12,650 bases of DNA. Origin: a virus. Under the pieces are notes generated by a model. It had not been told where the DNA came from, searched no databases, and saw only the letters and a program-made list of their open reading frames with translations. Shown here piece after piece: positions 1 to 12,322 of the stretch. The stretch spans positions 1-12,650 of the IMG/VR virus record IMGVR_UViG_3300045988_099112. One strand, 5' to 3'. Each line of letters begins with the position of its first letter. Position 1 is the stretch's first letter. Made by a program: the position numbers and the translations under genes.

Positions 1-290
1 GGGATTATGATATTAAAAATCAACAAAGATTTCCCACATAACACTGTTATGTTGTAACAGTTTGCACAAATTATCTTTTGTCAATATGAAATTGTAACAA
101 ATTTATCATCATGTCTTTGTTCATATTGCACAAAACAGTTGAATGCACAACTAGAACAATTCAAACGATAACGACTCTATTTAGAAGTTGTCTGACATTA
201 TGTTAAAATAGATCAATTTCTGCGAGCACCACCATAAATTAGTTAAAATAATCACTTGACAAATTGAAATTAGTTGTTCTAGAAATATGT
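1..290. repeat. Left inverted terminal repeat (ITR) of a linear, protein-primed genome
   Basis: Bases 1-290 match the reverse complement of 12361-12650. A hand, ungapped alignment gives 17 substitutions (positions 54, 72-76, 114, 124, 135, 145, 175-177, 196, 198, 264, 284). The first 53 nt are identical, and similarity stops abruptly after 290. No ORF is present. The terminus starts GGG. Confidence 0.92.
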
Positions 291-939: not shown

Positions 940-3041
940 TACACGTTAAAAATGAGACGATTTACGAATATGAAAAAGACGATATAACGCCTATTTATTA
1001 TTATGTCCGCGATTGTGATATAATTAAACGTCCGCGCGGTAATCAGCGAACTAAAAACAGCCACTTTTATTATAAGGATATAGTAGCTACGTTTGATATC
1101 GAGACAAGTCGCTTTACCGAAAAGAACGCTCCACGCGCAGATCTGATAGATCAATCTTTTTGTTATATATGGCAGATGTCGTTTAATAATGAATATGTGA
1201 TAGTAGGCAGAACGCTAAATAGCGCATTAGATTTTTTTACTCAAATTGACAAAAATTTAATGCGTGACGAACGCCTTGTTTGTTATGTCCATAACTTAAG
1301 TTACGAGTTCCAGTTTTTAAGCGGCATAGCCCGTTTTAAAACTGAGGACGTTTTTTGCATTAAAAAACGCAAGATATTAAAAGCCCTATTATGGGATACG
1401 TTTGAATTTAGATGTAGTTATCTACACGCTAATATGGGGCTAGCTCTATATACAGAAAAAATGCAAGTTGAACATGCTAAATTAGACGGTGTGCAATTTG
1501 ATTATAGTAAGTTACGTTACCCTTGGACACTATTAACAGATTACGAGATACTATATAGTGTGTATGATGTTATGGGTTTAGTTGAGTGTATCAAAAAAGA
1601 AATGGAAATGGACGGTGATACACTATATACTATTCCCTTAACGTCAACCGGTTATGTAAGACGTGACGCTAAAGAATCGTTAAAAAAGCTAGGAAAAAAC
1701 TATCTTAAGAATATGGAGATAGACTATCATATCTATGAGTTACTGAAAGAAGCATTTCGAGGTGGCGACACTCACGCTAACAGATATTTTAGTGGGAAAA
1801 TAATTGAAAACGTGCATAGTGCAGACAGGTCTAGCAGTTACCCAGATGTGTTAATTAACGGTCAGTTTCCAATGTCTCAATTTGCACCGCTAGAAAATCC
1901 AAATACCGAAAAAGTAATTAAATACCTCACACAATACAAGCGTGCGCTCTTAATGCGTGTACGCTTTAAAAACGTGTGTCTACGGCGCATAGACCACGGC
2001 TGTCCATATCTAACTAAAGACAAATCCAGACACATTAAAAATGCCACTTTTGATAATGGCAGAATCCTTGAATGTGAAGAAATGGAAACTACTCTCACCG
2101 ACATTGATTTTAAAATCGTGCTCAAAGAATATGATATAGAGTGTATGGAATTTAGTGAGGTATACCATGCTAGATACGGAAACTTACCGGAAGAACTAAA
2201 AGACGTAGTACGCACATACTACGTCAGAAAAACAGAATTAAAGGACATAGACGGGAAAGAAGTTTTTTACACTAAAGAGAAAAACAAGCTAAATGCGTGC
2301 TACGGCATGATGGCACAGGACGTTGTGAAGATTGCTATACTATTTAGTGACGAGTACGAAAAGCTATACGCCGAGGACGAAACGGACGATAAAGAAGCTA
2401 ACTTTGAAAAAAACAATAGCAAACGCTTTTTAAGCTACGCATGGGGCGCATGGTGTACCGCATTAGCACGCCACGCTCTACACGCCGCCATTTGGATAGT
2501 AGAGGATACACCAGACGCATACTTTTTGTATTGCGACACTGATAGCGTTAAATATATTGGCGATGTAGACCTCACTCCCTTTAATAGAAAGGCATTGTCA
2601 GATAGTAAAAAGAATAAAGCATTTGCAACAGACAAACATGGCGTCACTCATTACATGGGTGTTTACGAACAAGAACAGGATATGCTCCGTTTTAAAACGT
2701 TAGGCGCTAAAAAATACGCGTATGATGCAGTTAATAAAAAAGGCGAAAAAGAATTGCACTTGACACTTGCCGGAGTATCTAAAAAAGACGGCGCTACATA
2801 TTTAGCCGAGCATGGCGGTTTGGAATCCTTTTGTGACGGCTTTACTTTTCCGGAAAACGGTGGCGGCGGCAATGAAGCTGTCTATAACGATAGGACTAAT
2901 ACTACTATTAACATAGACGGCCACACATTGGCTGTTAGTCGAAATGTGTGTATTAAAGAATCTACTTATACACTAGGCTTGACACCGGAATACTCGGAGC
3001 TGTTAGATGGTTACAAAGAATACAACGTTTTACCGTTCTAA
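936..3041 (+). CDS. Protein-primed family-B DNA polymerase (phi29 gp2-like), 701 aa
   Basis: Exo I is FDIETS (D54/E56, nt 1095-1103). Exo II is HNLSYEFQF (nt about 1290-1316). Exo III is YSVYD. The pre-motif A region AFRGGDTHAN parallels phi29 YAYRGGFTWLN. Motif A is DRSSSYP (compare DVNSLYP) and motif B is KEKNKLNACYGMM (Kx3NSxYG type). Motif C is YCDTDS (nt 2529-2546). The KxY motif is LGAKKYAY, followed by LTLAGVSKK (compare phi29 VKCAGMTDK). Confidence 0.95.
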   Translation: MIHVKNETIYEYEKDDITPIYYYVRDCDIIKRPRGNQRTKNSHFYYKDIVATFDIETSRFTEKNAPRADLIDQSFCYIWQMSFNNEYVIVGRTLNSALDFFTQIDKNLMRDERLVCYVHNLSYEFQFLSGIARFKTEDVFCIKKRKILKALLWDTFEFRCSYLHANMGLALYTEKMQVEHAKLDGVQFDYSKLRYPWTLLTDYEILYSVYDVMGLVECIKKEMEMDGDTLYTIPLTSTGYVRRDAKESLKKLGKNYLKNMEIDYHIYELLKEAFRGGDTHANRYFSGKIIENVHSADRSSSYPDVLINGQFPMSQFAPLENPNTEKVIKYLTQYKRALLMRVRFKNVCLRRIDHGCPYLTKDKSRHIKNATFDNGRILECEEMETTLTDIDFKIVLKEYDIECMEFSEVYHARYGNLPEELKDVVRTYYVRKTELKDIDGKEVFYTKEKNKLNACYGMMAQDVVKIAILFSDEYEKLYAEDETDDKEANFEKNNSKRFLSYAWGAWCTALARHALHAAIWIVEDTPDAYFLYCDTDSVKYIGDVDLTPFNRKALSDSKKNKAFATDKHGVTHYMGVYEQEQDMLRFKTLGAKKYAYDAVNKKGEKELHLTLAGVSKKDGATYLAEHGGLESFCDGFTFPENGGGGNEAVYNDRTNTTINIDGHTLAVSRNVCIKESTYTLGLTPEYSELLDGYKEYNVLPF

Positions 3042-3043
3042 TT

Positions 3044-3089
3044 TTGTGCATTTTTCCGGTATTGCAAAATGAACCCATAGTGCTATAAT
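3044..3089 (+). promoter_or_regulatory. Promoter module copy 1 (drives the 94-aa and 122-aa genes)
   Basis: TTTTGTGCA box (3042-3050), -35 TTGCAA (3062-3067), 16-nt spacer, extended -10 TGcTATAAT (3081-3089). The block 3041-3110 is repeated at 4877-4945, including an identical TATAATAATACTTGTAAG. Confidence 0.75.
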
Positions 3090-3831: not shown

Positions 3832-3857
3832 AAAGCCCGCCTAGAGCGGGCTTTTTT
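3832..3857 (+). terminator. Rho-independent terminator
   Basis: AAAGCCCGC-ctaga-GCGGGCTTTTTT. The core is a 6-bp G:C stem (3835-3840 / 3846-3851) extended by 3 A:U pairs, with a 5-nt loop and a T6 tract. It starts 14 nt after the stop at 3818. Confidence 0.85.
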
Positions 3858-3871
3858 GAAAGGGCGAAAAT

Positions 3872-4876
3872 ATGGAATTATATTTAGAAAACGGTTACTT
3901 GAACATTGACTATGTGCTATCTCTAAATACAACATTTAATCTTATCACAGGCGGGCGCGGTACAGGCAAGACTTTTGGTCTACTCGATACCGCGATTAGA
4001 ACAGGTAAAAAATATATTTATCTGCGCCGTACACAAACAAATATTGATCTGATCGGAACGGAAGAATACTCACCACTTAAGTCAATAGAGCGTGTTCGCG
4101 GCATTGAGACGACAACCAAAAAAATCAATAAATATGTGGCCGCGCATTATTTAGGCGAAAATCCAGAACCTCTAGGCTATTGCATGGCTTTATCAACATT
4201 TGCCAACGTTCGCGGCTTTGACGCAACAGACGTTGACTGGTTGATTTTTGACGAATTTATACCCGAAAAAAATGCGCGAAAAATTAAAGATGAGGGAGAA
4301 GCATTTTTAAACTGTTACGAGACCATTAACCGTAACCGTGAATTAGAGGGCTCCGAACCAGTCAAGGTGTTTTGTTGCGGCAACTCAAATAATATCAGTA
4401 ATCCGGTTTTTATCAGTTTTGGAATGGTCAACATAGCCCGCCGTGCGCAGAAAAGCGGGCGTGAAGTTACAGTGTTAAAAGATCGCGGTATAGCATACAT
4501 TAACTTGTCAGATAGCAAGATTAGTAATCTCAAAAAAGATACCGCTCTATATAGAGCGTCTAAAAACAAAGCATTTAATTACATGTCTCTTGATAATGAT
4601 TTTGGAGATACAACGGACGATATTAAAAGCTATAATCTGCGCGGCTTAAAATGTGTCGCGGCAATAGATGATATATTTGCTATTTACCGTTTAAAAGACG
4701 GACGTTATTATGTATCTGAGCATATAAGCGGCACACCGCAAGTATTTACTACTGCGGAGATCGACTTAAAACGATTAAAATTAAAATACCCGCGTGTAAT
4801 GTCAGATTATGCGCGAAATCTTGTGACATTTGAAAGCGACTTTTGCTTGTCAGTTTTTGCGTCAATTTTAACGTGA
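3872..4876 (+). CDS. DNA packaging (encapsidation) ATPase, phi29 gp16-like, 334 aa
   Basis: Walker A is GGRGTGKTF (nt 3950-3976; compare phi29 GARGIGKSY). It is followed by YIYLRRTQ (compare FIYVRRYK) and Walker B WLIFDEFIPEK (compare IVFDEFIREK). INRNRE and CCGNSNNISNPVF parallel phi29 FRNRE and CLSNAVSVVNPYF. Confidence 0.9.
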   Translation: MELYLENGYLNIDYVLSLNTTFNLITGGRGTGKTFGLLDTAIRTGKKYIYLRRTQTNIDLIGTEEYSPLKSIERVRGIETTTKKINKYVAAHYLGENPEPLGYCMALSTFANVRGFDATDVDWLIFDEFIPEKNARKIKDEGEAFLNCYETINRNRELEGSEPVKVFCCGNSNNISNPVFISFGMVNIARRAQKSGREVTVLKDRGIAYINLSDSKISNLKKDTALYRASKNKAFNYMSLDNDFGDTTDDIKSYNLRGLKCVAAIDDIFAIYRLKDGRYYVSEHISGTPQVFTTAEIDLKRLKLKYPRVMSDYARNLVTFESDFCLSVFASILT

Positions 4877-4880
4877 TTTT

Positions 4881-4923
4881 TTGTGCATTTTGTATATTGT
4901 AAAACAGGCAATTCTGGTATAAT
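4881..4923 (+). promoter_or_regulatory. Promoter module copy 2 (drives the two small terminal genes)
   Basis: TTTTGTGCA box (4879-4887), -35 TTGTAA (4897-4902), 15-nt spacer, extended -10 TGgTATAAT (4915-4923). This is a direct repeat of the 3041-3110 module. Confidence 0.7.
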
Positions 4924-5193: not shown

Positions 5194-5400
5194 ATGTTAG
5201 CAGAACCGTTAGTAGAATTATTAGACGGCGTTGTAACCGCATACGGTCGTGGTGTTGCTATAATATCATACGACAAAAAGGAATTGTACGCCGTAAGAGT
5301 GAAAGATATTATCATTGATAATGAAAGAAATTCGATTGAGTTCCAATCGCAGGAATATATCAATAGCAACGGTGATATTGTAAGAGATAACACTATATGA
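5194..5400 (+). CDS. Hypothetical protein, 68 aa
   Basis: SD GAGGTGA lies 4 nt before the ATG. The ORF ends just before the convergent terminator. No motif was recognised. Confidence 0.55.
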   Translation: MLAEPLVELLDGVVTAYGRGVAIISYDKKELYAVRVKDIIIDNERNSIEFQSQEYINSNGDIVRDNTI

Positions 5401-5412
5401 AAATGGAAAAAG

Positions 5413-5443
5413 TAGAGATCGCACTTTTATAGCGCGATCTCTA
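5413..5443. terminator. Bidirectional rho-independent terminator between the convergent arms
   Basis: Perfect 10-bp stem TAGAGATCGC (5413-5422) / GCGATCTCTA (5434-5443) with an 11-nt loop. It is flanked by a T-rich run on the + strand (TACTTTTATTT) and by an A-rich run upstream (GGAAAAAG), which reads as U-rich on the - strand. It lies between the stops at 5400 (+) and 5453 (-). Confidence 0.8.
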
Positions 5444-5452
5444 TACTTTTAT

Positions 5453-6793
5453 TTAAGCAACGGTAAACTCCACATTGACTTGCCAATTATGCGCGCCGCC
5501 CGCGCTAACATTATCAATGGTAAACTGATAGTAGCTCTCTCCTTTGTTTAAAAAAGTAGCATTGTGACCAACACCGTCAACATTGCAAGCAGTTACAGCT
5601 ATATTGTAGTTATTTCCGTTTAAATGTGGCGGAAATGTGGCAGTCACATAGATCTTTCCGGCACTATCAGCCGGAGCAGTTCCAACCATGCTCTGAACAA
5701 AATGATTTTCGATAACATTAAGCCCTGGGATACCGCTATTATTAGCGCACCCAGTACTACACCGAATATTGGCATCGTTATTTGGAAGATAGCTTTTCCA
5801 TGTGCTTTCAATTCCTGTCGCTTTGCGGAACTGAATATTGAGATATCCGGCGTAGTCCGTCCAGTTACCGGAAAAAACAACGGTCATGACACTCGTAGTA
5901 TTGCCGTTACTATATCCGGCGTCATCTATTATTACGGCTTTTCCGGCGGTATGATTAAAATAGCAATTATTTACAATCAAATACTGTCCTGTTCTTCCAG
6001 AATATGCCGAATTGTGGGCGTAGAGGTTTGCAAACGAGCCAGATGCGACTAGCTGGCAATCGTACAACCTTAAATGTGTATTAGTACCGCTACCATATCC
6101 GACAGCAGTTCCGCCTTGTAAGCTACAGTTGCGGAATGTCACGATACCACTAACATTAGTGTCTAATGGGTCGACATGAACGGCATAAGTAGTAGACACC
6201 GTGTTTCGAATCGTAAGATTATAAAAAGAGACATCACCCTGTATATGGACGGTACAGTCTGGATATTCTCCGGCGTAGTAAATCTGCACGTTATTATTCG
6301 GTACATTTCCTAACCCGAAAAGAACTAAACCGTGTATGTCATTATACACTAACTGTTCGTAATAGTCTCCCTGCTCGATCAGTATTGTATATCTATTGGT
6401 AAGTGACATATCTTTACTGATAGCGTAGTCAATAGCCGCTTTTATTGTGTTAAACATGACACCGTTAGAGTGTCCGACAGTCAATATATAGCTGTCTCGT
6501 ACATATACTTTATCCATATAGCTATTTAAGCTATCTACTTTAGCGTTAATCTCTCCTAACAATGTTTGGTTAATCAACGCCCCCATAGTGCCATTATCAA
6601 TCAATCTCTGAATTTCATCAGCAATAGCGGTGTCAACGTCAAGTGAAGAGAAGTAGTTATTAACATACTCTTTTAACTGTTCGAAAGACAGTCCTAAATC
6701 TGCCACTTTTTTAACGCAATCTCTGACCTGTTCTAAAATCCAGTCAGCGTTAAATTCGTGGAAATTTGAATAAGGGAAATTTTGGTAACTCAT
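5453..6793 (-). CDS. Tail appendage / receptor-binding protein with right-handed beta-helix (pectate-lyase-like) domain, 446 aa
   Basis: The start was chosen at ATG 6793 (SD AAAGGATGA); the longer ORF to 6853 has no SD. The N-terminus NFHEFNADWILEQV is typical of phage fibre N-terminal anchors. The central part carries repeated beta-helix-type rungs (NLTIRNT, FRNCSLQGG, VNNCYFNH, VMTVVFSGN). It is the last gene after the collar genes, as gp12 is in phi29. Confidence 0.7.
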   Translation of the reverse strand: MSYQNFPYSNFHEFNADWILEQVRDCVKKVADLGLSFEQLKEYVNNYFSSLDVDTAIADEIQRLIDNGTMGALINQTLLGEINAKVDSLNSYMDKVYVRDSYILTVGHSNGVMFNTIKAAIDYAISKDMSLTNRYTILIEQGDYYEQLVYNDIHGLVLFGLGNVPNNNVQIYYAGEYPDCTVHIQGDVSFYNLTIRNTVSTTYAVHVDPLDTNVSGIVTFRNCSLQGGTAVGYGSGTNTHLRLYDCQLVASGSFANLYAHNSAYSGRTGQYLIVNNCYFNHTAGKAVIIDDAGYSNGNTTSVMTVVFSGNWTDYAGYLNIQFRKATGIESTWKSYLPNNDANIRCSTGCANNSGIPGLNVIENHFVQSMVGTAPADSAGKIYVTATFPPHLNGNNYNIAVTACNVDGVGHNATFLNKGESYYQFTIDNVSAGGAHNWQVNVEFTVA

Positions 6794-6834: not shown

Positions 6835-7497
6835 TTAGTAATTTAATAGACAAAATTCGTTAATAAAATCGTTGCAAATCCGGTCGTATATATTAAACTC
6901 TGCAACAGCTCTTTCCTGTTCAATCATGCTTTGCGTTGTCATTGTTCCAATATTTCCATGCACACGACCAGAATGTTTGCTTTCTTTTTTAGTGTCTCTA
7001 TTATCCGTTCCTGCGGCGGCACTATTTCCGTCACGCGTAAATGATATGTCTGGACGCTCAAAAGCGGTACTGTTATTTTGGTCGGTCTGCCATAGATTGG
7101 TTGTGTTAAACGCTGTATTATAATTTTTGCTCTCGGTGTCTGTCTGCGTCACTCCCTTATCTTGTCCGTGATCGAAATAGTTCCCTGTACTAGATGTTGT
7201 ACCATTTTCGTTACCGTTTTCATTGTCCGTCCATTCTTCATTTCGATCATAGTTTTCTATAGGATTATAGTCATACTCTGTTGTTTCTAATAGATGTTCC
7301 CAGATCGGCACGCGACTTGCTGACCAATAATTAATATAGCTTTTCAACGTTCGCGGATCTGCGTAGAGTATTTCCAATTCTGCGGCGCGGAAAAGTATCA
7401 AATTGACAAGCGTTTTTTTATCAACTTTTTTCGGGAGAGTCAAAGTGTCAAAAAGTGTTTGGTCGTGATTGTAAAGCCCTAGCACACTAATCCACAT
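6835..7497 (-). CDS. Putative lower collar / head-tail connector tube protein, 220 aa
   Basis: The start at ATG 7497 (SD GGAAGTGAGGAA) overlaps the portal stop by 11 nt. It occupies the position directly after the portal, as phi29 gp11 does. The central segment is rich in N/T/D/G/S (DNENGNENGTTSSTGNYF...TDQNNSTAF) and the C-terminus is HGNIGTMTTQSMIEQERAVAEFNIYDRICNDFINEFCLLNY. The function is inferred mainly from position. Confidence 0.55.
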   Translation of the reverse strand: MWISVLGLYNHDQTLFDTLTLPKKVDKKTLVNLILFRAAELEILYADPRTLKSYINYWSASRVPIWEHLLETTEYDYNPIENYDRNEEWTDNENGNENGTTSSTGNYFDHGQDKGVTQTDTESKNYNTAFNTTNLWQTDQNNSTAFERPDISFTRDGNSAAAGTDNRDTKKESKHSGRVHGNIGTMTTQSMIEQERAVAEFNIYDRICNDFINEFCLLNY

Positions 7498-8398
7498 CGT
7501 ATTCCTCACTTCCTTTCTGTACCGGTGGAAATCTCCATTCAACGCTCAAATTAGTTCCAAACATGGCGTTCACTTTTTCATAGCTTTCTTTTAAATTCTC
7601 GAGCCACATAGCCGCCATAGTATAGGTATCTACATTGTTAGCGTTTACCTCGTCTGCAATCATGCGTTCTTTTTTTGACAAGTTAGCGTTTGGAATACCG
7701 ATAGTTGTGTTAAAAAGTGCGTCTATCTTGTCTAGTGCAGAGAGAGTTTTATCTGCAATGTAGTTTTGTGCTACATTTTGCGATACAAACGGCAGTTCGA
7801 TTTTTCCGGTACTCTCATTAAACATACGAGTGTCCATGAATGTGGACGGTTCACCACGGTATATTTCATCGCACATTTTTTTAAACGTCTCCGCCTGTGC
7901 TTTGTTTTTTGCGGCAAAAATGTAGCTTAAATGACTGTTTAACAAATTAACATCTGTTGTTTGCATGGCAAGAGTACGCATATCCGCAAAGGTTGCTACA
8001 ATGTCGATCGGTGGCGTGTAGTCATATTGTAATTTTACCAACTCACACTCAACGCCGATTTTTGGATTAAGATTCCCGCGCAGAAGCGGGTTAGCAATCT
8101 GACAGTGTGTCGGTTGATACATCACGTTATAACCGCTAATACCGCACGCTTGCGGAATGATACCGTATTTATCGGTATTTATCACGGCGAAAAATCCCCA
8201 CCCGTAGAGAGAGTATAACACATAGTTTTTATCCCAATTTTCGGGAAATGTGTGTTTGAATACGCTTAATAACTTGTTAAAATAGTACCGATAATTAAAT
8301 GCGAAAGTAATGTTATCTCGCGAATGTACTGTGCTAGGAAATATGTTGCCATTGTAAGCGTTAATGCCGGGATAGTTCACAGGCAATTTATTATTCAT
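7487..8398 (-). CDS. Portal / upper collar connector protein (phi29 gp10-like), 303 aa
   Basis: GIPNANLSKKERMIADEVNANN matches the remembered phi29 gp10 segment [22 protein letters not shown]. The size is similar (303 versus 309 aa). SD GGAGG is present and the start overlaps the tail-knob stop. Confidence 0.88.
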   Translation of the reverse strand: MNNKLPVNYPGINAYNGNIFPSTVHSRDNITFAFNYRYYFNKLLSVFKHTFPENWDKNYVLYSLYGWGFFAVINTDKYGIIPQACGISGYNVMYQPTHCQIANPLLRGNLNPKIGVECELVKLQYDYTPPIDIVATFADMRTLAMQTTDVNLLNSHLSYIFAAKNKAQAETFKKMCDEIYRGEPSTFMDTRMFNESTGKIELPFVSQNVAQNYIADKTLSALDKIDALFNTTIGIPNANLSKKERMIADEVNANNVDTYTMAAMWLENLKESYEKVNAMFGTNLSVEWRFPPVQKGSEEYDVD

Positions 8399-9864: not shown

Positions 9865-11031
9865 CTACTCTAATAAAAATACAACGGCGTTTTCCGTAAA
9901 ATCGTTCCAATAGCGATCGGTGAAATGAAAGTAGATATTTGAGTAACCGCCCGCCGCATTAAACGGTGTAGTAGCAGTCCACTGATTAACTACTGTATAG
10001 CCCATAGCTTCTACATCACACATAAGCCCGAATACGTTTGACGTAACAACCGCTTCTTCCTCGACTTTGGTCGTTCCGTCCGGCAAGAGATACTCCGGTT
10101 TATTGTTAATACCCATAGGTGTATCAATGGACTGCCAAAAGTTGACCTGCTCAGTGTATGCCAACTTGAGAAAATCGGGGTTGAATACATCAGAAAGAAC
10201 GGAAGTTCTAATGTTGTTTAACTCCGGCGAATATAAGTAGAGTGACTGCATACTTGGCGGAGTATGGCGTGCGATCTCATGATCTGTGACGTTAATGTGG
10301 TATTTTACGGTTCTTTCAGTCAGCAGTGAAGAGATAGTGGAAAGGTAGCCGTACATCCATTTTACAAATGGAACGAAATTCTGCGGCTGTTTAACGGTGT
10401 CGGGTGTGAGTGCCGCCCCTGTCATATCGTTATAAACAGTGACTAACTTAATTACATTCGGAGCGTCGCCTTTTACTTTGCCGTTGATAAAGTTAGCTAC
10501 GGTAGCTCTAGCAAGTGATTCGTGCGCCTGTTCGATTGTATCGGACAAATTCTGTGCCACCATTGCGAGAAAACGCCCGAACTCTTCCATGCTTGAAAAA
10601 GCGACATCTAACTGATCGCGGAATACTGTATAGTGCGTCTGAAAAGTTTCCTGTCCATACATGTTGACCTGTAATACTTTTGGTTTTCGCACTTTATACA
10701 TGTCAACTGAGACATTATCTTCCAATGTATAGCGCTGATCGTCCTCAAACGGAAGATCGGATAAATTAAGTTTGCGGACGTGATTTCCGTAGCGAATTGA
10801 GTCAGCTTCGAGCCCCTTAAATTTACGAGTATACGGGCGAACAGAAAAGATTGTGCGCGACAACACCTGTGAGATTGCTTTAAGTGTGACGTCATAGTCC
10901 TTTTTTAAAACTGTAGTAGCAACGCTGACAAAGTTTTCCGGTGTCACGGTGCCGATCACTTTTGAGCCTGTTACCTGTGCTAATACTTCATTAAGCACTG
11001 CGCTTGTCTGTTCGATTGTAAGTGTATTCAT
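9865..11031 (-). CDS. Major capsid protein (phi29 gp8-like, HK97 fold; no Ig-like extension), 388 aa
   Basis: SD AGAAAGGAAGTGA is present and the start overlaps the scaffold stop (TAATG). The N-terminal region VLSRTIFSVRPYTRKFKGL parallels phi29 [25 protein letters not shown]. The C-terminus YSNIYFHF...FTENAVVFLL parallels YWNYYYHVWQ...RFANAVAFV. Confidence 0.85.
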   Translation of the reverse strand: MNTLTIEQTSAVLNEVLAQVTGSKVIGTVTPENFVSVATTVLKKDYDVTLKAISQVLSRTIFSVRPYTRKFKGLEADSIRYGNHVRKLNLSDLPFEDDQRYTLEDNVSVDMYKVRKPKVLQVNMYGQETFQTHYTVFRDQLDVAFSSMEEFGRFLAMVAQNLSDTIEQAHESLARATVANFINGKVKGDAPNVIKLVTVYNDMTGAALTPDTVKQPQNFVPFVKWMYGYLSTISSLLTERTVKYHINVTDHEIARHTPPSMQSLYLYSPELNNIRTSVLSDVFNPDFLKLAYTEQVNFWQSIDTPMGINNKPEYLLPDGTTKVEEEAVVTSNVFGLMCDVEAMGYTVVNQWTATTPFNAAGGYSNIYFHFTDRYWNDFTENAVVFLLE

Positions 11032-11339
11032 TATTTTTCACTTCCTTTCTGTGGCGGATTGATAATTGACGCTAGCGCTTCATCAGCAGTCATAGCTTTA
11101 GGTTGTTCGGAATGCATGATAGCGTTAGACTGTACCGCTTTTGTGAGCGCTTCGATCTGCGCGCCTAAATCGTATGGATTCTGCTGTGTAGGGATCTGCT
11201 GTGTCGGGATCTGCTGTGTCGGGATCTGCTGTGTCGGGATCTGCTGTGTCGGGATCTGCTGTGTCGGGATCTGCTGTGGCTCTGTTTTTTCCGCTAACGC
11301 TAACGCTAAGAGTGCGTTAAAAAGATTCTCTGTTTTCAT
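11031..11339 (-). CDS. Putative scaffolding protein with (IPTQQ)x6 tandem repeat, 102 aa
   Basis: A small protein immediately upstream of, and coupled to, the capsid gene, as phi29 gp7 (98 aa) is. Helix-prone flanks (FNALLALALAEK, LGAQIEALTKAVQ) surround a Q/P-rich repeat. I see no sequence similarity to gp7, so the assignment is positional. Confidence 0.5.
   Translation of the reverse strand: MKTENLFNALLALALAEKTEPQQIPTQQIPTQQIPTQQIPTQQIPTQQIPTQQNPYDLGAQIEALTKAVQSNAIMHSEQPKAMTADEALASIINPPQKGSEK
11176..11280. repeat. 15-bp tandem repeat (about 7 units) inside the scaffold gene
   Basis: GGGATCTGCTGTGTC occurs five times perfectly (11191-11265). Degenerate units flank it at 11176-11190 (GGATTCTGCTGTGTA) and 11266-11280 (GGGATCTGCTGTGGC). 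The repeat is in frame and encodes IPTQQ repeats on the - strand. Confidence 0.95.
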
Positions 11340-11936
11340 TTAAAAATGTCCTTTCTTTAAATAATTGTTTACAAGTGACTGCACTTTTGAGTAACTATAT
11401 CCCATTGCAGTTACTTTTTTACGGCGACTTTCGCCATTGCCGTATAAGCCTTTAATACAGTTAGTTGCGACTTCTCTGTATTTGCTTTCGCCAGGCTCTG
11501 TATTGGCAATGATATTGCCGGATAAAAAGAGTGCTTTTTCTGCTTCACGTCTTTTAACGAGTCCGGTAAGTTTTCTACCTCCGGCATGGCAGTAGCGAGG
11601 CATAGCTTCTGCGATCTCTTTTCGCGACCTTTTCCCATTTGCTACCAATTTATTAAGATTTCCCGCGCCTAAATTAAAAACAAAAGATACAAGCGCGTCA
11701 AATTCTGACTGGCTAAAGTGATATGTATTATACCATTTGTTTACTGCATTTTCTGCGGTAACAACATCCGCACGCAGAAAAGCATCTGCCTGTTCGATTG
11801 TGATTTTCTGATTTCTGCGGACGTTTATTGTATGCCCGTAACCGATCGTAAGAGTGCCGCCCGCGTCAGCATATGTTGTCAAACGCAAACCCTCAAAAGA
11901 TTTGATAAGATTAAGACCGACCTCACTGCATTTCAT
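11340..11936 (-). CDS. Endolysin: GH24 (T4/lambda-type) lysozyme domain plus one C-terminal CW_7 (Cpl-7-type) cell-wall-binding repeat, 198 aa
   Basis: The start is at ATG 11936 (SD GGGGGTGAT). GLNLIKSFEGLRLTTYADAGGTLTIGYGHT is the GH24 catalytic signature (E, D, T). The C-terminal REVATNCIKGLYGNGESRRKKVTAMGYSYSKVQSLVNNYL fits the CW_7 repeat consensus (GxWGNGxxRkxxLgxxGYdYxxVQxxVN). Confidence 0.9.
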   Translation of the reverse strand: MKCSEVGLNLIKSFEGLRLTTYADAGGTLTIGYGHTINVRRNQKITIEQADAFLRADVVTAENAVNKWYNTYHFSQSEFDALVSFVFNLGAGNLNKLVANGKRSRKEIAEAMPRYCHAGGRKLTGLVKRREAEKALFLSGNIIANTEPGESKYREVATNCIKGLYGNGESRRKKVTAMGYSYSKVQSLVNNYLKKGHF

Positions 11937-12144
11937 TATTATCACCCCCAATTTTAGATACGATCTTTTCGAGCGCAATAGTATTTCTTTCTAATACATC
12001 GCGCAATTTTGACACCTCTTCTGTGTGTTCTTTCTGAATTTCTTTCACATAACCAGCCATACAAATACAAGCGGCAATCGGAAAAGCATAGTTTCCGATT
12101 AATGTTGGCACGTCAAGTGTTGCACCGATCATGTTAAATAACAT
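11923..12144 (-). CDS. Holin, BhlA/UviB-like (single N-terminal TM helix plus charged coiled C-terminus), 73 aa
   Basis: The start is at ATG 12144 (SD AGAAAGGAAG, 6-nt spacer); the longer ORF to 12198 lacks an SD. The hydrophobic stretch LIGNYAFPIAACICMAGYV is followed by KEIQKEHTEEVSKLRDVLERNTIALEKIVSKI, as in BhlA-family holins. The gene overlaps the endolysin start by 14 nt. Confidence 0.7.
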   Translation of the reverse strand: MLFNMIGATLDVPTLIGNYAFPIAACICMAGYVKEIQKEHTEEVSKLRDVLERNTIALEKIVSKIGGDNNEMQ

Positions 12145-12174
12145 ACATATCTTCCTTTCTGTGTAGAGTTTAAG

Positions 12175-12242
12175 TTGGCGGCTCGTGCGCCTACACAAAC
12201 GCGCTGACCGCTCTTCCGGAGCTGTGTATTGGTCGCCGCCAA
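12175..12242 (-). promoter_or_regulatory. GC-rich structured RNA element in the late-operon 5' leader (function unknown)
   Basis: It stands out by eye as a GC-rich island in an AT-rich genome. The closing helix is TTGGCGGC (12175-12182) / GCCGCCAA (12235-12242). Internal helices are GCGC 12187-90 / 12201-04, GACC 12206-09 / GGTC 12231-34, and GCTC 12210-13 / GAGC 12219-22. An alternative pairing is TACACA 12192-97 / TGTGTA 12223-28. The element begins about at the predicted late transcription start and ends about 15 nt before the holin SD. Confidence 0.5.
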
Positions 12243-12249
12243 TAGTGTC

Positions 12250-12279
12250 ATTTTAGAGCTGTGTTGTTATTTCTGTCAA
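12250..12279 (-). promoter_or_regulatory. Late-operon promoter (leftward)
   Basis: On the - strand: -35 TTGACA (12279-12274), 18-nt spacer, -10 TAAAAT (12255-12250). Upstream is TTTTGTGCAATTTGTATATTG, nearly identical to the upstream part of promoter module copy 2 (TTTTGTGCATTTTGTATATTG). It is the only promoter-like site upstream of the 6.7-kb leftward operon. Confidence 0.65.
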
Positions 12280-12284
12280 TATAC

Positions 12285-12322
12285 AAATTGCACAAAATTA
12301 GCGCACTTGTTTTGTGCAATTT
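12285..12322. promoter_or_regulatory. Perfect 13-bp-arm inverted repeat (putative operator/activator site or AT-rich hairpin terminator)
   Basis: AAATTGCACAAAA (12285-12297), 12-nt spacer, TTTTGTGCAATTT (12310-12322). The proximal arm lies 5 nt upstream of the late -35. Each arm contains the TTGTGCAA octamer, which also occurs in the ITRs and, as TTGTGCA, at both internal promoters. Confidence 0.6.

What the first reader, a model, noticed from the sequence alone, without database searches (positions are those of the whole stretch)
12145..12249. GC-rich three-way-junction-like RNA at the very 5' end of the late transcript, with an alternative pairing that reaches the holin SD
From the predicted late transcription start (about 12243) the RNA immediately forms an 8-bp G:C-rich closing helix (12235-42 with 12175-82). 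This encloses two further helical arms (GACC+GCTC / GAGC...GGTC, and GCGC/GCGC), about 68 nt in all, in a genome that is otherwise AT-rich. The - strand segment UGUGUAG (12197-12191) can pair with UACACA inside the domain (12228-12223). Alternatively it can pair with CUACACA (12166-12160), which directly abuts the holin SD AGAAAGGAAG (12160-12151). The holin and endolysin are the first genes of the late operon, so some post-transcriptional delay of lysis would be expected, and this element is ideally placed for that. There are two other possibilities. It could be a 5' stabiliser hairpin for the long late mRNA. It could also be a processed small RNA acting as a compact packaging RNA, since phi29-type gp16 motors use a pRNA with paired 5'/3' ends and a three-way junction, although at about 120 nt minimum that RNA is much larger. 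I recognise no known riboswitch class or tRNA cloverleaf here.
Basis: partly seen in the sequence, partly recalled or inferred. Interest (0 to 1): 0.75.

Follow-up and report, generated by a model that had tools for sequence, protein, structure and literature searches.

The report
Miniature pRNA-like RNA in gut phage
A 68-nucleotide folded RNA at the start of the late transcript of a tiny phi29-like gut phage is conserved in about 90 related phages and has the same layout as phi29 packaging RNA (pRNA), so RNA-dependent DNA-packaging motors may exist in miniature form well beyond Bacillus phages.

Summary
On the - strand, 12242-12175 folds into an 8-bp closing helix and two arms, directly after a near-consensus promoter. 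The element is real and conserved. A covariance model finds exactly one copy per genome in 73 of 81 related sequences, always upstream of the late genes. It also finds the element in held-out contigs, and I found it by eye in the cultured Amedibacillus phage AD70P3. All four helices show compensatory changes. So does the pairing between the 7-8-nt bulge and the second hairpin loop (permutation p<=5e-5). The apical loop CGGAA is nearly invariant. Segment by segment this is the topology of the phi29 pRNA prohead-binding domain, and the phage encodes phi29-type gp16 ATPase, gp10 connector and capsid. It is half the size of pRNA, does not match Rfam Phage_pRNA, and is fused to the late mRNA. My best reading, at about 0.5, is a miniature packaging RNA that forms rings by trans bulge/loop pairing. 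The rivals are a cis-acting pseudoknotted leader, an antitermination RNA and a riboswitch. No tool here can separate cis from trans pairing.

The parts
12250..12279 (-). Sigma-70-type promoter TTGACA (12279-12274), 18-nt spacer, TAAAAT (12255-12250). The predicted start is near A12243, right at the first base of helix A.
   Evidence: 11/12 match. The same arrangement holds in relatives, where the -10 box ends 4-8 nt before helix A in most loci.
12175..12242 (-). The whole 68-nt three-way-junction RNA element.
   Evidence: CM R1 hit at 12176-12241, 45.6 bits.
12235..12242 (-). Helix A, 5' strand UUGGCGGC. It pairs with 12182-12175.
   Evidence: All 10 aligned A-helix pairs show compensatory changes.
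12231..12234 (-). Helix C, 5' strand GACC. It pairs with 12209-12206.
12223..12230 (-). 5'-side bulge AAUACACA, the counterpart of the pRNA CE or 'right-hand' loop. UACACA is complementary to the D loop.
   Evidence: The bulge/loop pairing covaries: 40 distinct combinations, 4-5 pair types per position.
12210..12222 (-). E hairpin GCUC-CGGAA-GAGC. The pentaloop CGGAA (12218-12214) is nearly invariant across the family.
   Evidence: Variants UGGAA, CUGAA, CAGAA and CCGAA occur only in distant members.
12206..12209 (-). Helix C, 3' strand GGUC. It is continuous with the E 3' strand, with no bulge on this side.
12187..12204 (-). D hairpin GCGC-GUUUGUGUAG-GCGC. The loop (12200-12191) holds UGUGUA, the partner of the bulge. 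This is the counterpart of the pRNA D or 'left-hand' loop.
12183..12186 (-). Junction strand ACGA between helix D and helix A. It is purine-rich and conserved as A-N-G-A in most relatives.
12175..12182 (-). Helix A, 3' strand GCCGCCAA.
12160..12166 (-). Leader box CUACACA. It copies the bulge sequence and is complementary to the D loop, and it abuts the SD. It is conserved only in the window's own clade.
   Evidence: window, L001, L003.
12151..12158 (-). Shine-Dalgarno region GAAAGGAAG of the first late gene.
11923..12144 (-). First late gene: a 73-aa holin-like protein (start ATG 12144), followed by the endolysin.
   Evidence: PHROG holin phrog_4898. The endolysin has Phage_lysozyme plus CW_7.
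3872..4876 (+). phi29-type packaging ATPase (Podovirus_Gp16), the presumed partner if the RNA is a pRNA.
   Evidence: E=6e-20.
7487..8398 (-). phi29-type connector or portal (Phage_connector GP10), the presumed docking site of the RNA ring.

Best explanation
The element is a miniature packaging (prohead) RNA. It is a natural, roughly 65-100-nt counterpart of phi29 pRNA that consists essentially of the prohead-binding domain plus a short A helix.

Proposed mechanism:
- The RNA is transcribed from the strong promoter that also drives the late genes, so it is made when proheads appear. Its 5' end sits in helix A.
- It is released as a discrete RNA. In some relatives an intrinsic terminator does this. 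In the window it would be decay or processing of the unstructured mRNA downstream.
- The invariant E-loop CGGAA docks on the connector/capsid vertex.
- The bulge of one molecule pairs with the D loop of the next molecule, in trans, and closes an RNA ring.
- The A helices present the gp16-type ATPase to the portal.

Shown here: the fold, its conservation, covariation of all helices and of the bulge/loop pair, one copy per genome, promoter placement, and phi29-type motor proteins.

Inferred: trans rather than cis pairing, prohead binding, release from the mRNA, and a role in packaging.
For: **Same topology as phi29 pRNA**
- The Rfam structure of phi29 pRNA runs: A, then 1 nt, then C, then a 9-nt 5'-only bulge, then a 4-bp E helix, a 6-nt loop, E' and C' as one continuous strand, 3 nt, a 6-bp D helix, a 5-nt loop, and A'.
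- This family runs: A, then 0-1 nt, a 4-bp C helix, a 7-8-nt 5'-only bulge, a 4-bp E helix, a 5-nt loop, a continuous 3' strand, 1-2 nt, a 4-6-bp D helix, a 5-10-nt loop, about 4 nt, and A'.

**The defining bulge/D-loop complementarity is present and covaries**
- There are 40 distinct bulge/loop combinations.
- The cognate complementary run averages 4.6 bp against 2.9 for non-cognate pairs, permutation p<=5e-5.
- Six of 6 informative pairs show double changes.
- New pairs appear in held-out loci.

**All four helices covary**
- RNAalifold on a sequence-only alignment finds compensatory changes in 13 of 13 pairs.
- The covariation score is 0.83 against 0.15 for shuffles and 0.04-0.12 for slid controls.

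**One copy per genome**
- Every hit is on the late-gene strand. There were 73 hits in 73 of 81 sources across 0.98 Mb and both strands, and none elsewhere.
- The element persists down to about 30% capsid identity and occurs in cultured Amedibacillus phage AD70P3.

**The phage has the phi29-type motor**
- It encodes Podovirus_Gp16, Phage_connector GP10 and Phi29_MCP.
- No other structured non-coding candidate exists in the 12.65-kb genome. The other stable regions are plain terminators.

**Signs of a discrete RNA in some relatives**
- The L066/L068/L069 clade has a terminator hairpin plus U-run right after the element.
- In L082, L052, L070, L105 and others a U-run directly follows helix A.
- No alternative antiterminator pairing was seen on inspection of the L068 sequence listed.

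**A helix resembling that of phi29**
- One clade (L010-L035) extends helix A to 15-17 bp across an A-rich 5' bulge, reminiscent of the bulged phi29 A helix.

**Geometry**
- C and D helix lengths are anticorrelated, and C+D is 8-10 bp in 44 of 47.
- The C'-to-D linker is only 0-2 nt. This fits a fixed bulge-to-loop distance along a stacked rod better than two parallel arms touching in cis. This last step is inference only.

**RNA, not DNA**
- G-U pairs outnumber A-C pairs in the helices, about 45 to 17 by my tally of the pair types listed. That points to RNA of this strand rather than a DNA cruciform.
Against: - There is no sequence or covariance-model similarity to Rfam RF00044, even at E<=10, while the same scan scores phi29 at 145 bits.
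- The window RNA is 68 nt with an 8-bp A helix. The minimal active phi29 pRNA is 120 nt, and its long bulged A helix is essential for packaging (PMC5066667).
- The unpaired junction nucleotides are distributed differently: 0-1/1-2/~4 here against 1/3/0 in phi29. Helix stacking may therefore differ.
- In the window and most relatives no terminator separates the element from the late ORFs. The leader has a median length of 37 nt. The element could therefore act purely in cis.
- Its position is locked to the 5' end of the late operon even where genome order differs, as expected for a cis element.
- Many leaders carry a conserved (U)UCCGGGAAG box next to the SD that relates to the E hairpin. This hints at a cis interaction.
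- A topology-only descriptor is unspecific, giving 37-72 hits per genome. Topology alone is weak evidence.
- A few members have only 3 bp of bulge/loop complementarity or none (L051, L070, L083, L101; L049 and L073/L076).
- Nothing here tests trans pairing or prohead binding.
Confidence: 0.5

Rival explanations
1. The element is a cis-acting 5' leader of the late mRNA. The three-way junction folds into a compact intramolecular pseudoknot, with the bulge pairing with the D loop of the same molecule. This protects the 5' end from 5'-exonuclease and/or tunes translation of the first late gene. Tuning could work through competition between the loops and leader boxes next to the SD, or through a protein that binds the CGGAA loop.
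For: - The element always sits at the very 5' end of the late transcript, with helix A starting at the predicted +1.
- Most loci have no terminator, and the leader is short, with a median of 37 nt.
- Leader boxes lie adjacent to the SD. CUACAC(A/G) in the window clade is complementary to the D loop. (U)UCCGG(G)AAG occurs in 33 of 61 distinct leaders against a 19% background, and it is complementary to CCGGAA of the E hairpin.
- Covariation fits cis pairing as well as it fits trans pairing.
Against: - A stabiliser needs only a terminal hairpin. It does not need an invariant loop, a covarying bulge/loop pair or conserved junction purines.
- The leader boxes are absent from many clades. Where the E loop varies the leader does not follow: L081, L085, L033 and L066 carry no matching complement in the leaders listed.
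- The first downstream gene is not always the same.
- Terminators between the element and the gene in the L066 clade, L082 and others make no sense for a stabiliser or translational operator.
- The C'-to-D linker of 0-2 nt and the anticorrelated C and D lengths do not favour side-by-side arms. This is inference.
Confidence: 0.23
2. The element is a processive antitermination RNA, either put-like and acting directly on RNA polymerase or nut/boxB-like and recruiting a phage protein through the CGGAA hairpin. It would let polymerase that starts at the late promoter read through terminators in the roughly 7-kb late operon.
For: - The order promoter, structured RNA, terminator, genes is seen in the L066/L068/L069 clade and in L082, L052 and L070. 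This is the arrangement known for HK022 put (my own knowledge).
- The size, about 65-70 nt, and the position right after +1 fit.
- The E hairpin is a GC stem with a purine-rich pentaloop, superficially like boxB.
- The window uses terminators inside operons. For example, one at 3834-3857 lies just before the ATPase gene.
Against: - Most members, including the window, have no terminator near the element.
- put and nut RNAs have no three-way junction and no bulge/loop complementarity.
- The terminator inside the early operon has no such element upstream.
- No Rfam antitermination family matches.
Confidence: 0.12
3. The element is a riboswitch-like ligand sensor or a small self-cleaving ribozyme. 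The three-way junction with conserved junction purines would form a pocket, held together by the bulge/loop contact as in purine riboswitches or hammerheads.
For: - The architecture resembles the purine riboswitch: a closing helix and two arms with a tertiary loop contact.
- About 13 unpaired nucleotides are conserved: AA in the bulge, A(C/A) and A-N-G-A in the junction, and CGGAA.
- In some members a U-run follows helix A.
Against: - There is no consistent expression platform. Neither the window nor most relatives show alternative pairing with a terminator or the SD.
- No Rfam riboswitch or ribozyme family matches, even at E<=10.
- The junctions, at 0-1/1-2/4 nt, are too short for known catalytic cores such as the hammerhead.
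- The most conserved part is an apical loop, which is typical of a protein or RNA contact rather than a ligand pocket.
Confidence: 0.05

Closest known systems
phi29-family prohead/packaging RNA (pRNA; Rfam RF00044 Phage_pRNA)
   Same: - It is encoded by a protein-primed phage with gp16 ATPase, gp10 connector and phi29-type capsid.
- The 5' and 3' ends pair in helix A.
- It has a three-way junction.
- The C-E arm carries a 7-9-nt bulge on the 5' strand only, topped by a 4-bp E helix and a small conserved loop.
- The D hairpin loop is Watson-Crick complementary to the bulge over 3-8 nt, and that pairing differs between related phages.
- Sequence diverges while structure is kept.
   Different: - It is about half the size: 68 nt here against 120-174 nt.
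- Helices A and C are much shorter, and the window has no CCA-type bulge and no domain II.
- Unpaired junction nucleotides are placed differently.
- It does not match RF00044.
- It is fused to the 5' end of the late mRNA instead of being a separate early gene near the genome end.
- Its function and trans pairing are untested.
Purine-riboswitch-type three-way junctions (loop-loop stabilised aptamers)
   Same: It has a closing helix, two arms joined by a covarying tertiary base-pairing contact, conserved junction purines, and a location in a 5' leader.
   Different: - The contact is bulge-to-loop, not loop-to-loop.
- The junction strands are far shorter.
- There is no expression platform.
- The apical loop is the invariant part.
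- It is found only in phi29-like phages.
HK022 put RNA / lambda nut-boxB antitermination elements
   Same: It is a compact structured RNA of about 70 nt transcribed immediately downstream of a phage promoter, and in some relatives it lies upstream of a terminator.
   Different: - put is two stem-loops without a junction or loop complementarity.
- boxB is a single hairpin.
- Most members here have no nearby terminator.
5' stabiliser hairpins of Gram-positive mRNAs (ermC and aprE leaders, SP82 stabiliser)
   Same: It is a stable helix at the very 5' end of a transcript in a Firmicutes-type system.
   Different: Stabilisers are simple hairpins or ribosome-binding sites. They show no conserved multi-helix topology, invariant loop or covarying tertiary pair.

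Membership tests
phi29-type pRNA | Encoded by a phage with the phi29-type packaging apparatus (gp16 ATPase, gp10 connector) | tested here: met
   Pfam hits: Podovirus_Gp16 (3872-4876), Phage_connector (7487-8398, - strand), Phi29_MCP, Phi29 SSB and PolB_2. There are 297-nt ITRs.
phi29-type pRNA | Three-way junction in which helix A is formed by the 5' and 3' regions | tested here: met
   MFE and centroid agree. Helix A covaries at 10 of 10 positions. RNAalifold recovers helix A from a sequence-only alignment. The predicted +1 coincides with the start of helix A. The true 3' end is unknown.
phi29-type pRNA | C-E arm: a helix interrupted by a bulge on the 5' strand only, then a short E helix with a small conserved loop | tested here: met
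   The bulge is 7-8 nt, E is 3-5 bp, the loop is 5 nt (CGGAA), and the 3' strand is continuous in 47 of 47 distinct parses. The phi29 values come from the Rfam alignment.
phi29-type pRNA | CE bulge and D loop are Watson-Crick complementary, and the pairing covaries between phages | tested here: met
   Permutation p<=5e-5. Six of 6 informative pairs show double changes. Held-out loci carry new pairs. Exceptions have 3 bp or fewer: L051, L070, L083, L101, L049, L073.
phi29-type pRNA | The bulge/loop pairing is intermolecular and closes a pentameric or hexameric ring | not testable with these tools
   Only indirect hints are available: a 0-2-nt C'-to-D linker and anticorrelated C and D lengths. 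Gel-shift, AUC or complementation experiments are needed.
phi29-type pRNA | Match to the curated covariance model RF00044 | tested here: not met
   No hit at the gathering threshold or at E<=10. The positive control, phi29, scores 145 bits.
phi29-type pRNA | Long A helix (about 25 bp with a CCA bulge) needed for ATPase binding, and a size of at least 120 nt | tested here: not met
   The window has an 8-bp A helix and 68 nt in all. Relatives have 6-16 bp. Only the L010-L035, L036, L039 and L049 clades extend helix A across a bulge.
phi29-type pRNA | Separate transcription unit with its own promoter and terminator | tested here: inconclusive
   A promoter is present everywhere. A terminator or U-run follows the element only in some clades (L066 group, L082, L052, L070, L105). 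The window has none.
phi29-type pRNA | Binds proheads, is required for packaging, and is absent from mature virions | not testable with these tools
   An experiment is needed. A cultured host-phage pair exists: Amedibacillus phage AD70P2/P3.
Riboswitch | Conserved aptamer coupled to an expression platform with mutually exclusive pairing (terminator/antiterminator or SD sequestration) | tested here: not met
   Folding with the leader keeps the junction and leaves the SD free. No conserved alternative pairing appears across clades. There is no Rfam hit.
put-type antiterminator RNA | Promoter-proximal RNA followed by terminators that it suppresses in cis | tested here: inconclusive
   The arrangement is present in a minority of loci and absent in the window. 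Activity cannot be tested here.
Known self-cleaving ribozymes (hammerhead, twister, pistol, hatchet) | Conserved catalytic core nucleotides and a match to the family model | tested here: not met
   There are no Rfam matches. The junction strands of 0-1/1-2/4 nt lack the hammerhead CUGANGA/GAAA core.

The most novel reading that the evidence does not exclude
A natural minimal pRNA is transcribed as the first 70 nt of the late mRNA and has a second job. Boxes in the leader next to the SD copy or complement its loops: CUACACA in this phage and UCCGGGAAG in others. The same RNA-RNA or RNA-protein contacts that build the packaging ring could therefore also set translation of the first late gene, here the holin. 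That would couple head assembly to lysis timing.
Probability: 0.1. Interest if true: 0.9.

Novelty: new variant of a known kind. Interest (0 to 1): 0.75.

Why it matters
pRNA is the only known RNA component of a viral DNA-packaging motor. According to a 2016 and a 2024 review (PMC5066667, PMC11476376) it is confined to phi29 and related Bacillus phages. [quoted passage not shown]

A conserved 65-100-nt RNA with the pRNA blueprint in about 90 gut phages of Clostridia-type hosts, including a cultured Amedibacillus phage, would matter in four ways:
- It would show that RNA-dependent packaging is widespread among protein-primed podophages.
- It would define a natural minimal pRNA, showing which parts are dispensable and how a short A helix can still hold the ATPase.
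- It would give dozens of natural orthogonal bulge/loop pairs for RNA nanotechnology, which already relies on the pRNA junction and interlocking loops.
- It would make the old question of what pRNA does in the motor testable in a second, much simpler system.

If the pairing turns out to be in cis, this is a new, widespread class of structured phage leader RNA. That would still be worth describing.

Tried and rejected
- **tRNA or tmRNA:** ARAGORN found none.
- **Any Rfam family:** nothing at gathering or at E<=10 beyond three chance-level hits: CRISPR-DR22, mir-3660 and permuted tmRNA.
- **Close DNA relatives among deposited phages:** none by megablast.
- **MAFFT alone:** it misaligned helix C. 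The first CM alignment (A3) was also out of register for several clades. I therefore built an N-padded structural alignment from my own descriptor parse (A4). Its 99.9% paired figure is by construction and is not evidence. Only the covariation measures and the independent RNAalifold run count.
- **Topology-only pRNA descriptor without sequence anchors:** too permissive, with 37-72 hits per genome. It ranks phi29 pRNA second of 50 and the window element second of 37. It cannot be used to search other phage families.
- **CM R1 on other phages:** no hits in C. innocuum phages, phiCPV4, Eggerthella LE1-1, Cp-1 or Salmonella astrithr. The model is tied to the CGGAA loop, so absence there is not informative.
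- **E loop pairing with the leader UCCGG box:** the E loop hardly varies, and where it does the leader does not follow. This is unsupported.
- **DNA-level cruciform or protein site:** rejected, because G-U pairs are tolerated on this strand only and the element always lies downstream of a promoter.
- **Other candidate structured RNAs in the genome:** the other stable windows are ordinary terminators.
Full report
**What the window is**

The 12,650-bp window is a complete linear genome with 297-nt inverted terminal repeats, 94% complementary. The + strand encodes a family-B protein-primed-type polymerase, a phi29-type SSB and a Podovirus_Gp16 packaging ATPase. The - strand encodes a holin-like protein, an endolysin (Phage_lysozyme plus CW_7), a repeat-rich scaffold-like protein, a Phi29_MCP capsid protein and a phi29 GP10-type connector. 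It is one of the very small phi29-like podophages. It has no close DNA relative among deposited phages. The nearest records are human-faecal contigs and, more distantly, Amedibacillus phages AD70P2/P3, with 31.5% capsid identity.

**The observation**

TTGACA-18-TAAAAT (12279-12250, 11/12 match) places the transcription start at about 12243. From there the segments run:
- Helix A: 12242-12235 pairs with 12182-12175.
- Helix C: 12234-12231 pairs with 12209-12206.
- Bulge AAUACACA: 12230-12223, on the 5' side only.
- E hairpin GCUC-CGGAA-GAGC: 12222-12210.
- One A (12205).
- D hairpin GCGC-GUUUGUGUAG-GCGC: 12204-12187.
- Junction ACGA (12186-12183).

RNAfold gives this three-way junction as both MFE and centroid: -29.2 kcal/mol, z=-2.2. 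It keeps the junction when the leader is included. It is the second most stable 80-nt window in the genome and is 65% GC in a genome of about 39% GC. On one sequence this is suggestive, not conclusive.

**Comparative evidence**

A capsid-based search returned 80 related viral contigs.
- A descriptor anchored on the NGGAA loop found the same architecture in about 68 of them. It was always on the capsid strand and always just downstream of a TTGACA-N17-TATAAT promoter.
- A covariance model built from 46 distinct sequences then found exactly one hit per source in 73 of 81 sources, and nothing else in 0.98 Mb on both strands at E<=1.
- The misses are 5'-truncated contigs or a small variant clade (L049, L073/L076).
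- The model also finds the element in sequences it was not built from. These are faecal contigs with 30-42% capsid identity and 8 of 13 phage contigs binned into Clostridiales/Lachnospiraceae MAGs.
- By eye the same element sits in cultured Amedibacillus phage AD70P3, between the packaging ATPase gene and the late genes. It reads UGAGGG GUUGC AUAUCCAA UAGUG-CCGAA-CACUA GCAAC AGU-AGGGAU-ACU CUUUG CCCUCA.

**Covariation**

- RNAalifold on a purely sequence-based MAFFT alignment recovers helices A, E and D. Compensatory double changes occur in 13 of 13 pairs.
- On a structural alignment of 51 distinct sequences (A4) the covariation score is 0.83, against 0.15 for shuffles (0 of 500 reach it) and 0.04-0.12 for slid controls. 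All five helices show double changes with 4-5 pair types per position.
- A4 was made from my descriptor parse, so its near-100% pairing is by construction. Only the covariation measures carry weight.
- The fifth 'helix' is the pairing between the 5' bulge and the D loop. Across 40 distinct bulge/loop combinations, the cognate complementary run averages 4.6 bp against 2.9 for non-cognate combinations (permutation p<=5e-5).
- Examples are UACACA/UGUGUA (window), GUGCA/UGCAC, GCACA/UGUGC, GGAC/GUCC, GAGC/GCUC, AACCA/UGGUU, GAAACA/UGUUUC, GAAACC/GGUUUC, UGAAGUA/UACUUCA and AAAAGGAA/UUCCUUUU.
- In contrast the E loop is almost invariant. It is CGGAA, with rare UGGAA, CUGAA, CAGAA and CCGAA in distant members.
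- G-U pairs are common and A-C pairs rare, so the structure belongs to the RNA of this strand.

**What it resembles**

The Rfam alignment of phi29 pRNA gives this order: helix A, 1 nt, helix C, a 9-nt bulge on the 5' strand only, a 4-bp E helix, a 6-nt loop, an uninterrupted E'/C' 3' strand, 3 nt, a 6-bp D helix, the 5-nt loop UGGUU, helix A'.

The new family has the same segments in the same order. The modal sizes are C 4 bp, bulge 7-8 nt, E 4 bp, loop 5 nt, D 4-6 bp and D loop 5-10 nt. It also has the property that defines pRNA function. The bulge ('right hand') is complementary to the D loop ('left hand'), and this pairing changes from phage to phage while the fold stays the same (PMC5066667). 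In phi29 that pairing is intermolecular and builds the ring on the prohead. The E loop contacts the prohead, and the A helices hold the ATPase.

The present phage has the matching protein parts. It has no other candidate structured RNA, since the only other stable regions are ordinary terminators at 3834-3857 and about 5412-5445.

Some relatives express the element as a discrete unit.
- In the L066/L068/L069 clade a hairpin plus U-run follows it.
- In L082 a 16-bp A helix starts at +1 and ends in UUUUU.
- L052, L070 and L105 have a U-run right after helix A.
- The L010-L035 clade extends helix A to 15-17 bp across an A-rich bulge, with compensatory changes in the outer segment. This recalls the bulged A helix of phi29.

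**What does not fit pRNA membership**

- The element does not match RF00044 at any threshold.
- It is half the size of the minimal active phi29 pRNA, and in the window its A helix is only 8 bp.
- The unpaired junction nucleotides are placed differently: 0-1/1-2/~4 against 1/3/0.
- In the window and most relatives it is fused to the late mRNA, with a median 37-nt leader to the first ORF and no terminator.

I therefore file it as working like a pRNA and as a new variant, not as a member of the curated family.

**Cis or trans**

No tool here can decide whether the bulge/loop pairing is intramolecular (a pseudoknot) or intermolecular (a ring). Two observations lean toward trans, but they are inference.
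- The linker between C' and D is only 0-2 nt.
- C and D lengths are anticorrelated (Spearman -0.51, n=47, not corrected for phylogeny), and C+D is 8-10 bp in 44 of 47.

This is what one expects if C and D stack, so that the bulge and the loop sit a fixed distance apart at opposite ends of a rod. Arms lying side by side would need matched lengths.

The CUACACA box next to the SD is real. It is unlikely by chance and is kept in the two close relatives even though the rest of their leaders differ. It does not generalise. Other clades carry no copy of their own bulge in the leader.

Many clades instead carry (U)UCCGGGAAG just 5' of the SD: 33 of 61 distinct leaders against a 19% background. This box is both complementary to CCGGAA of the E hairpin and nearly a copy of its 5' half. 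It does not change where the E loop changes.

The first late gene is the holin-like protein in most loci. It is a different protein in L011, L036, L039/L048, L081 and L087. A holin-specific delay switch is therefore not the general function, although a clade-specific regulatory add-on remains possible.

**Rivals**

- A cis-acting pseudoknotted leader (stabiliser or translational operator) explains the fixed position and the leader boxes. It does not explain the terminators in some clades or the need for so elaborate a fold.
- A put- or nut-like antitermination RNA explains the promoter-RNA-terminator-genes order in a minority of loci. It does not explain the junction or the bulge/loop pair.
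- A riboswitch or ribozyme lacks any expression platform or known core.

I put these at about 0.23, 0.12 and 0.05, against 0.5 for the packaging-RNA reading.

**Novelty and literature**

Full-text searches found no description of such an RNA. A 2024 review states that pRNA is, to current knowledge, unique to phi29 and related Bacillus phages. [quoted passage not shown] Subscription-only papers were not searchable.

**Verdict**

The finding is real and robust as a conserved structured RNA family. Its most likely identity is a miniature pRNA. The decisive experiments are simple, and a cultured phage carrying the element exists.

Noticed in passing
L053:1235, 2936, 4437, 5586, 7292; L093 (phiCPV4): 4814, 4840, 7848, 7873, 9951, 11826, 11851; L092:5058; L081:3705; L001:249, 5856: A perfect 16-20-bp palindrome (A)ATGTTTCACGTGAAACAT(T) recurs 2-7 times per genome in many genomes of this phage group. 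That includes distant cultured phages of C. perfringens, C. innocuum and Amedibacillus. It often sits next to the late promoter or element: it abuts the -35 box in L066/L075, and it lies between the element and the SD in L053-L065 and L017/L028. The exact core is absent from the window. It may be an operator for a conserved regulator or a hairpin terminator.
   Followed up: partly
window 12160-12166 (- strand); L009, L053, L011, L084 and other leaders: Boxes just 5' of the SD of the first late gene relate to loops of the element. In the window clade the box is CUACAC(A/G), a copy of the bulge and a complement of the D loop. In 33 of 61 distinct leaders it is (U)UCCGGGAAG, complementary to CCGGAA of the E hairpin and nearly a copy of its 5' half. 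The function is unknown.
   Followed up: partly
window 12286-12320 (- strand), 4879-4899 (+), 3038-3054 (+): The box TAATTTTGTGCA(A/T)TTTGTATATTG recurs three times. At the late promoter it forms an inverted repeat, TTGCACAAAA-N11-TTTTGTGCAA, that runs into the -35 hexamer. It may be a binding site for an activator or repressor of middle/late promoters.
   Followed up: no
window 3834-3857 (+) and about 5412-5445: A canonical intrinsic terminator (AAAGCCCGC...GCGGGCUUUUUU) lies only about 15 nt before the start of the packaging ATPase gene, with no promoter in between. ATPase expression therefore seems to depend on read-through. A second hairpin sits between the convergent gene blocks and looks like a bidirectional terminator.
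   Followed up: partly
window 11031-11339 (- strand): The 102-aa protein between the endolysin and the capsid protein contains seven tandem PTQQI repeats. It is probably a scaffold-like protein. The first late ORF of AD70P3 is similarly repetitive (EEQKK repeats).
   Followed up: no
window as a whole, compared with L009, L053 and L081: In the window the late module is inverted and starts next to the right ITR. In most relatives all genes run one way and the element sits mid-genome, directly after the packaging ATPase gene. The element stays attached to the late promoter in both layouts.
   Followed up: partly
L049:1001-1076; L073:3195-3274; L076:5850-5929: A variant clade has an 11-nt bulge, a 6-bp E helix and the CGGAA loop. 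It shows no convincing bulge/D-loop complementarity and scores only weakly with the model.
   Followed up: no
L010, L019, L021, L015, L018, L023 (elements near 5400-5520): Helix A is extended by a second 6-8-bp segment across a 6-7-nt A-rich bulge on the 5' strand, for example UAUAGGG-aaaaca-AAAGUCCGUG...UACGGACUUU-CCCUAUA. The outer segment shows compensatory changes between members (GUGGGG/CCCCAC, GUGAGGG/CCCUCAC).
   Followed up: partly
window 12134-12148 (- strand): Two ATGs lie 4 nt apart (ATGTATG). The first opens a 4-codon out-of-frame mini-ORF (M Y V I stop) that overlaps the holin start at 12144.
   Followed up: no
L095 (Cp-1) 10-74 (-) and 19270-19334 (+): The topology-only descriptor's top hit in Streptococcus phage Cp-1 lies inside the terminal repeat, with a 6-bp bulge/loop match within CAUUUUCA and UGAAAAA. 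The descriptor is unspecific, so this is only a lead.
   Followed up: no
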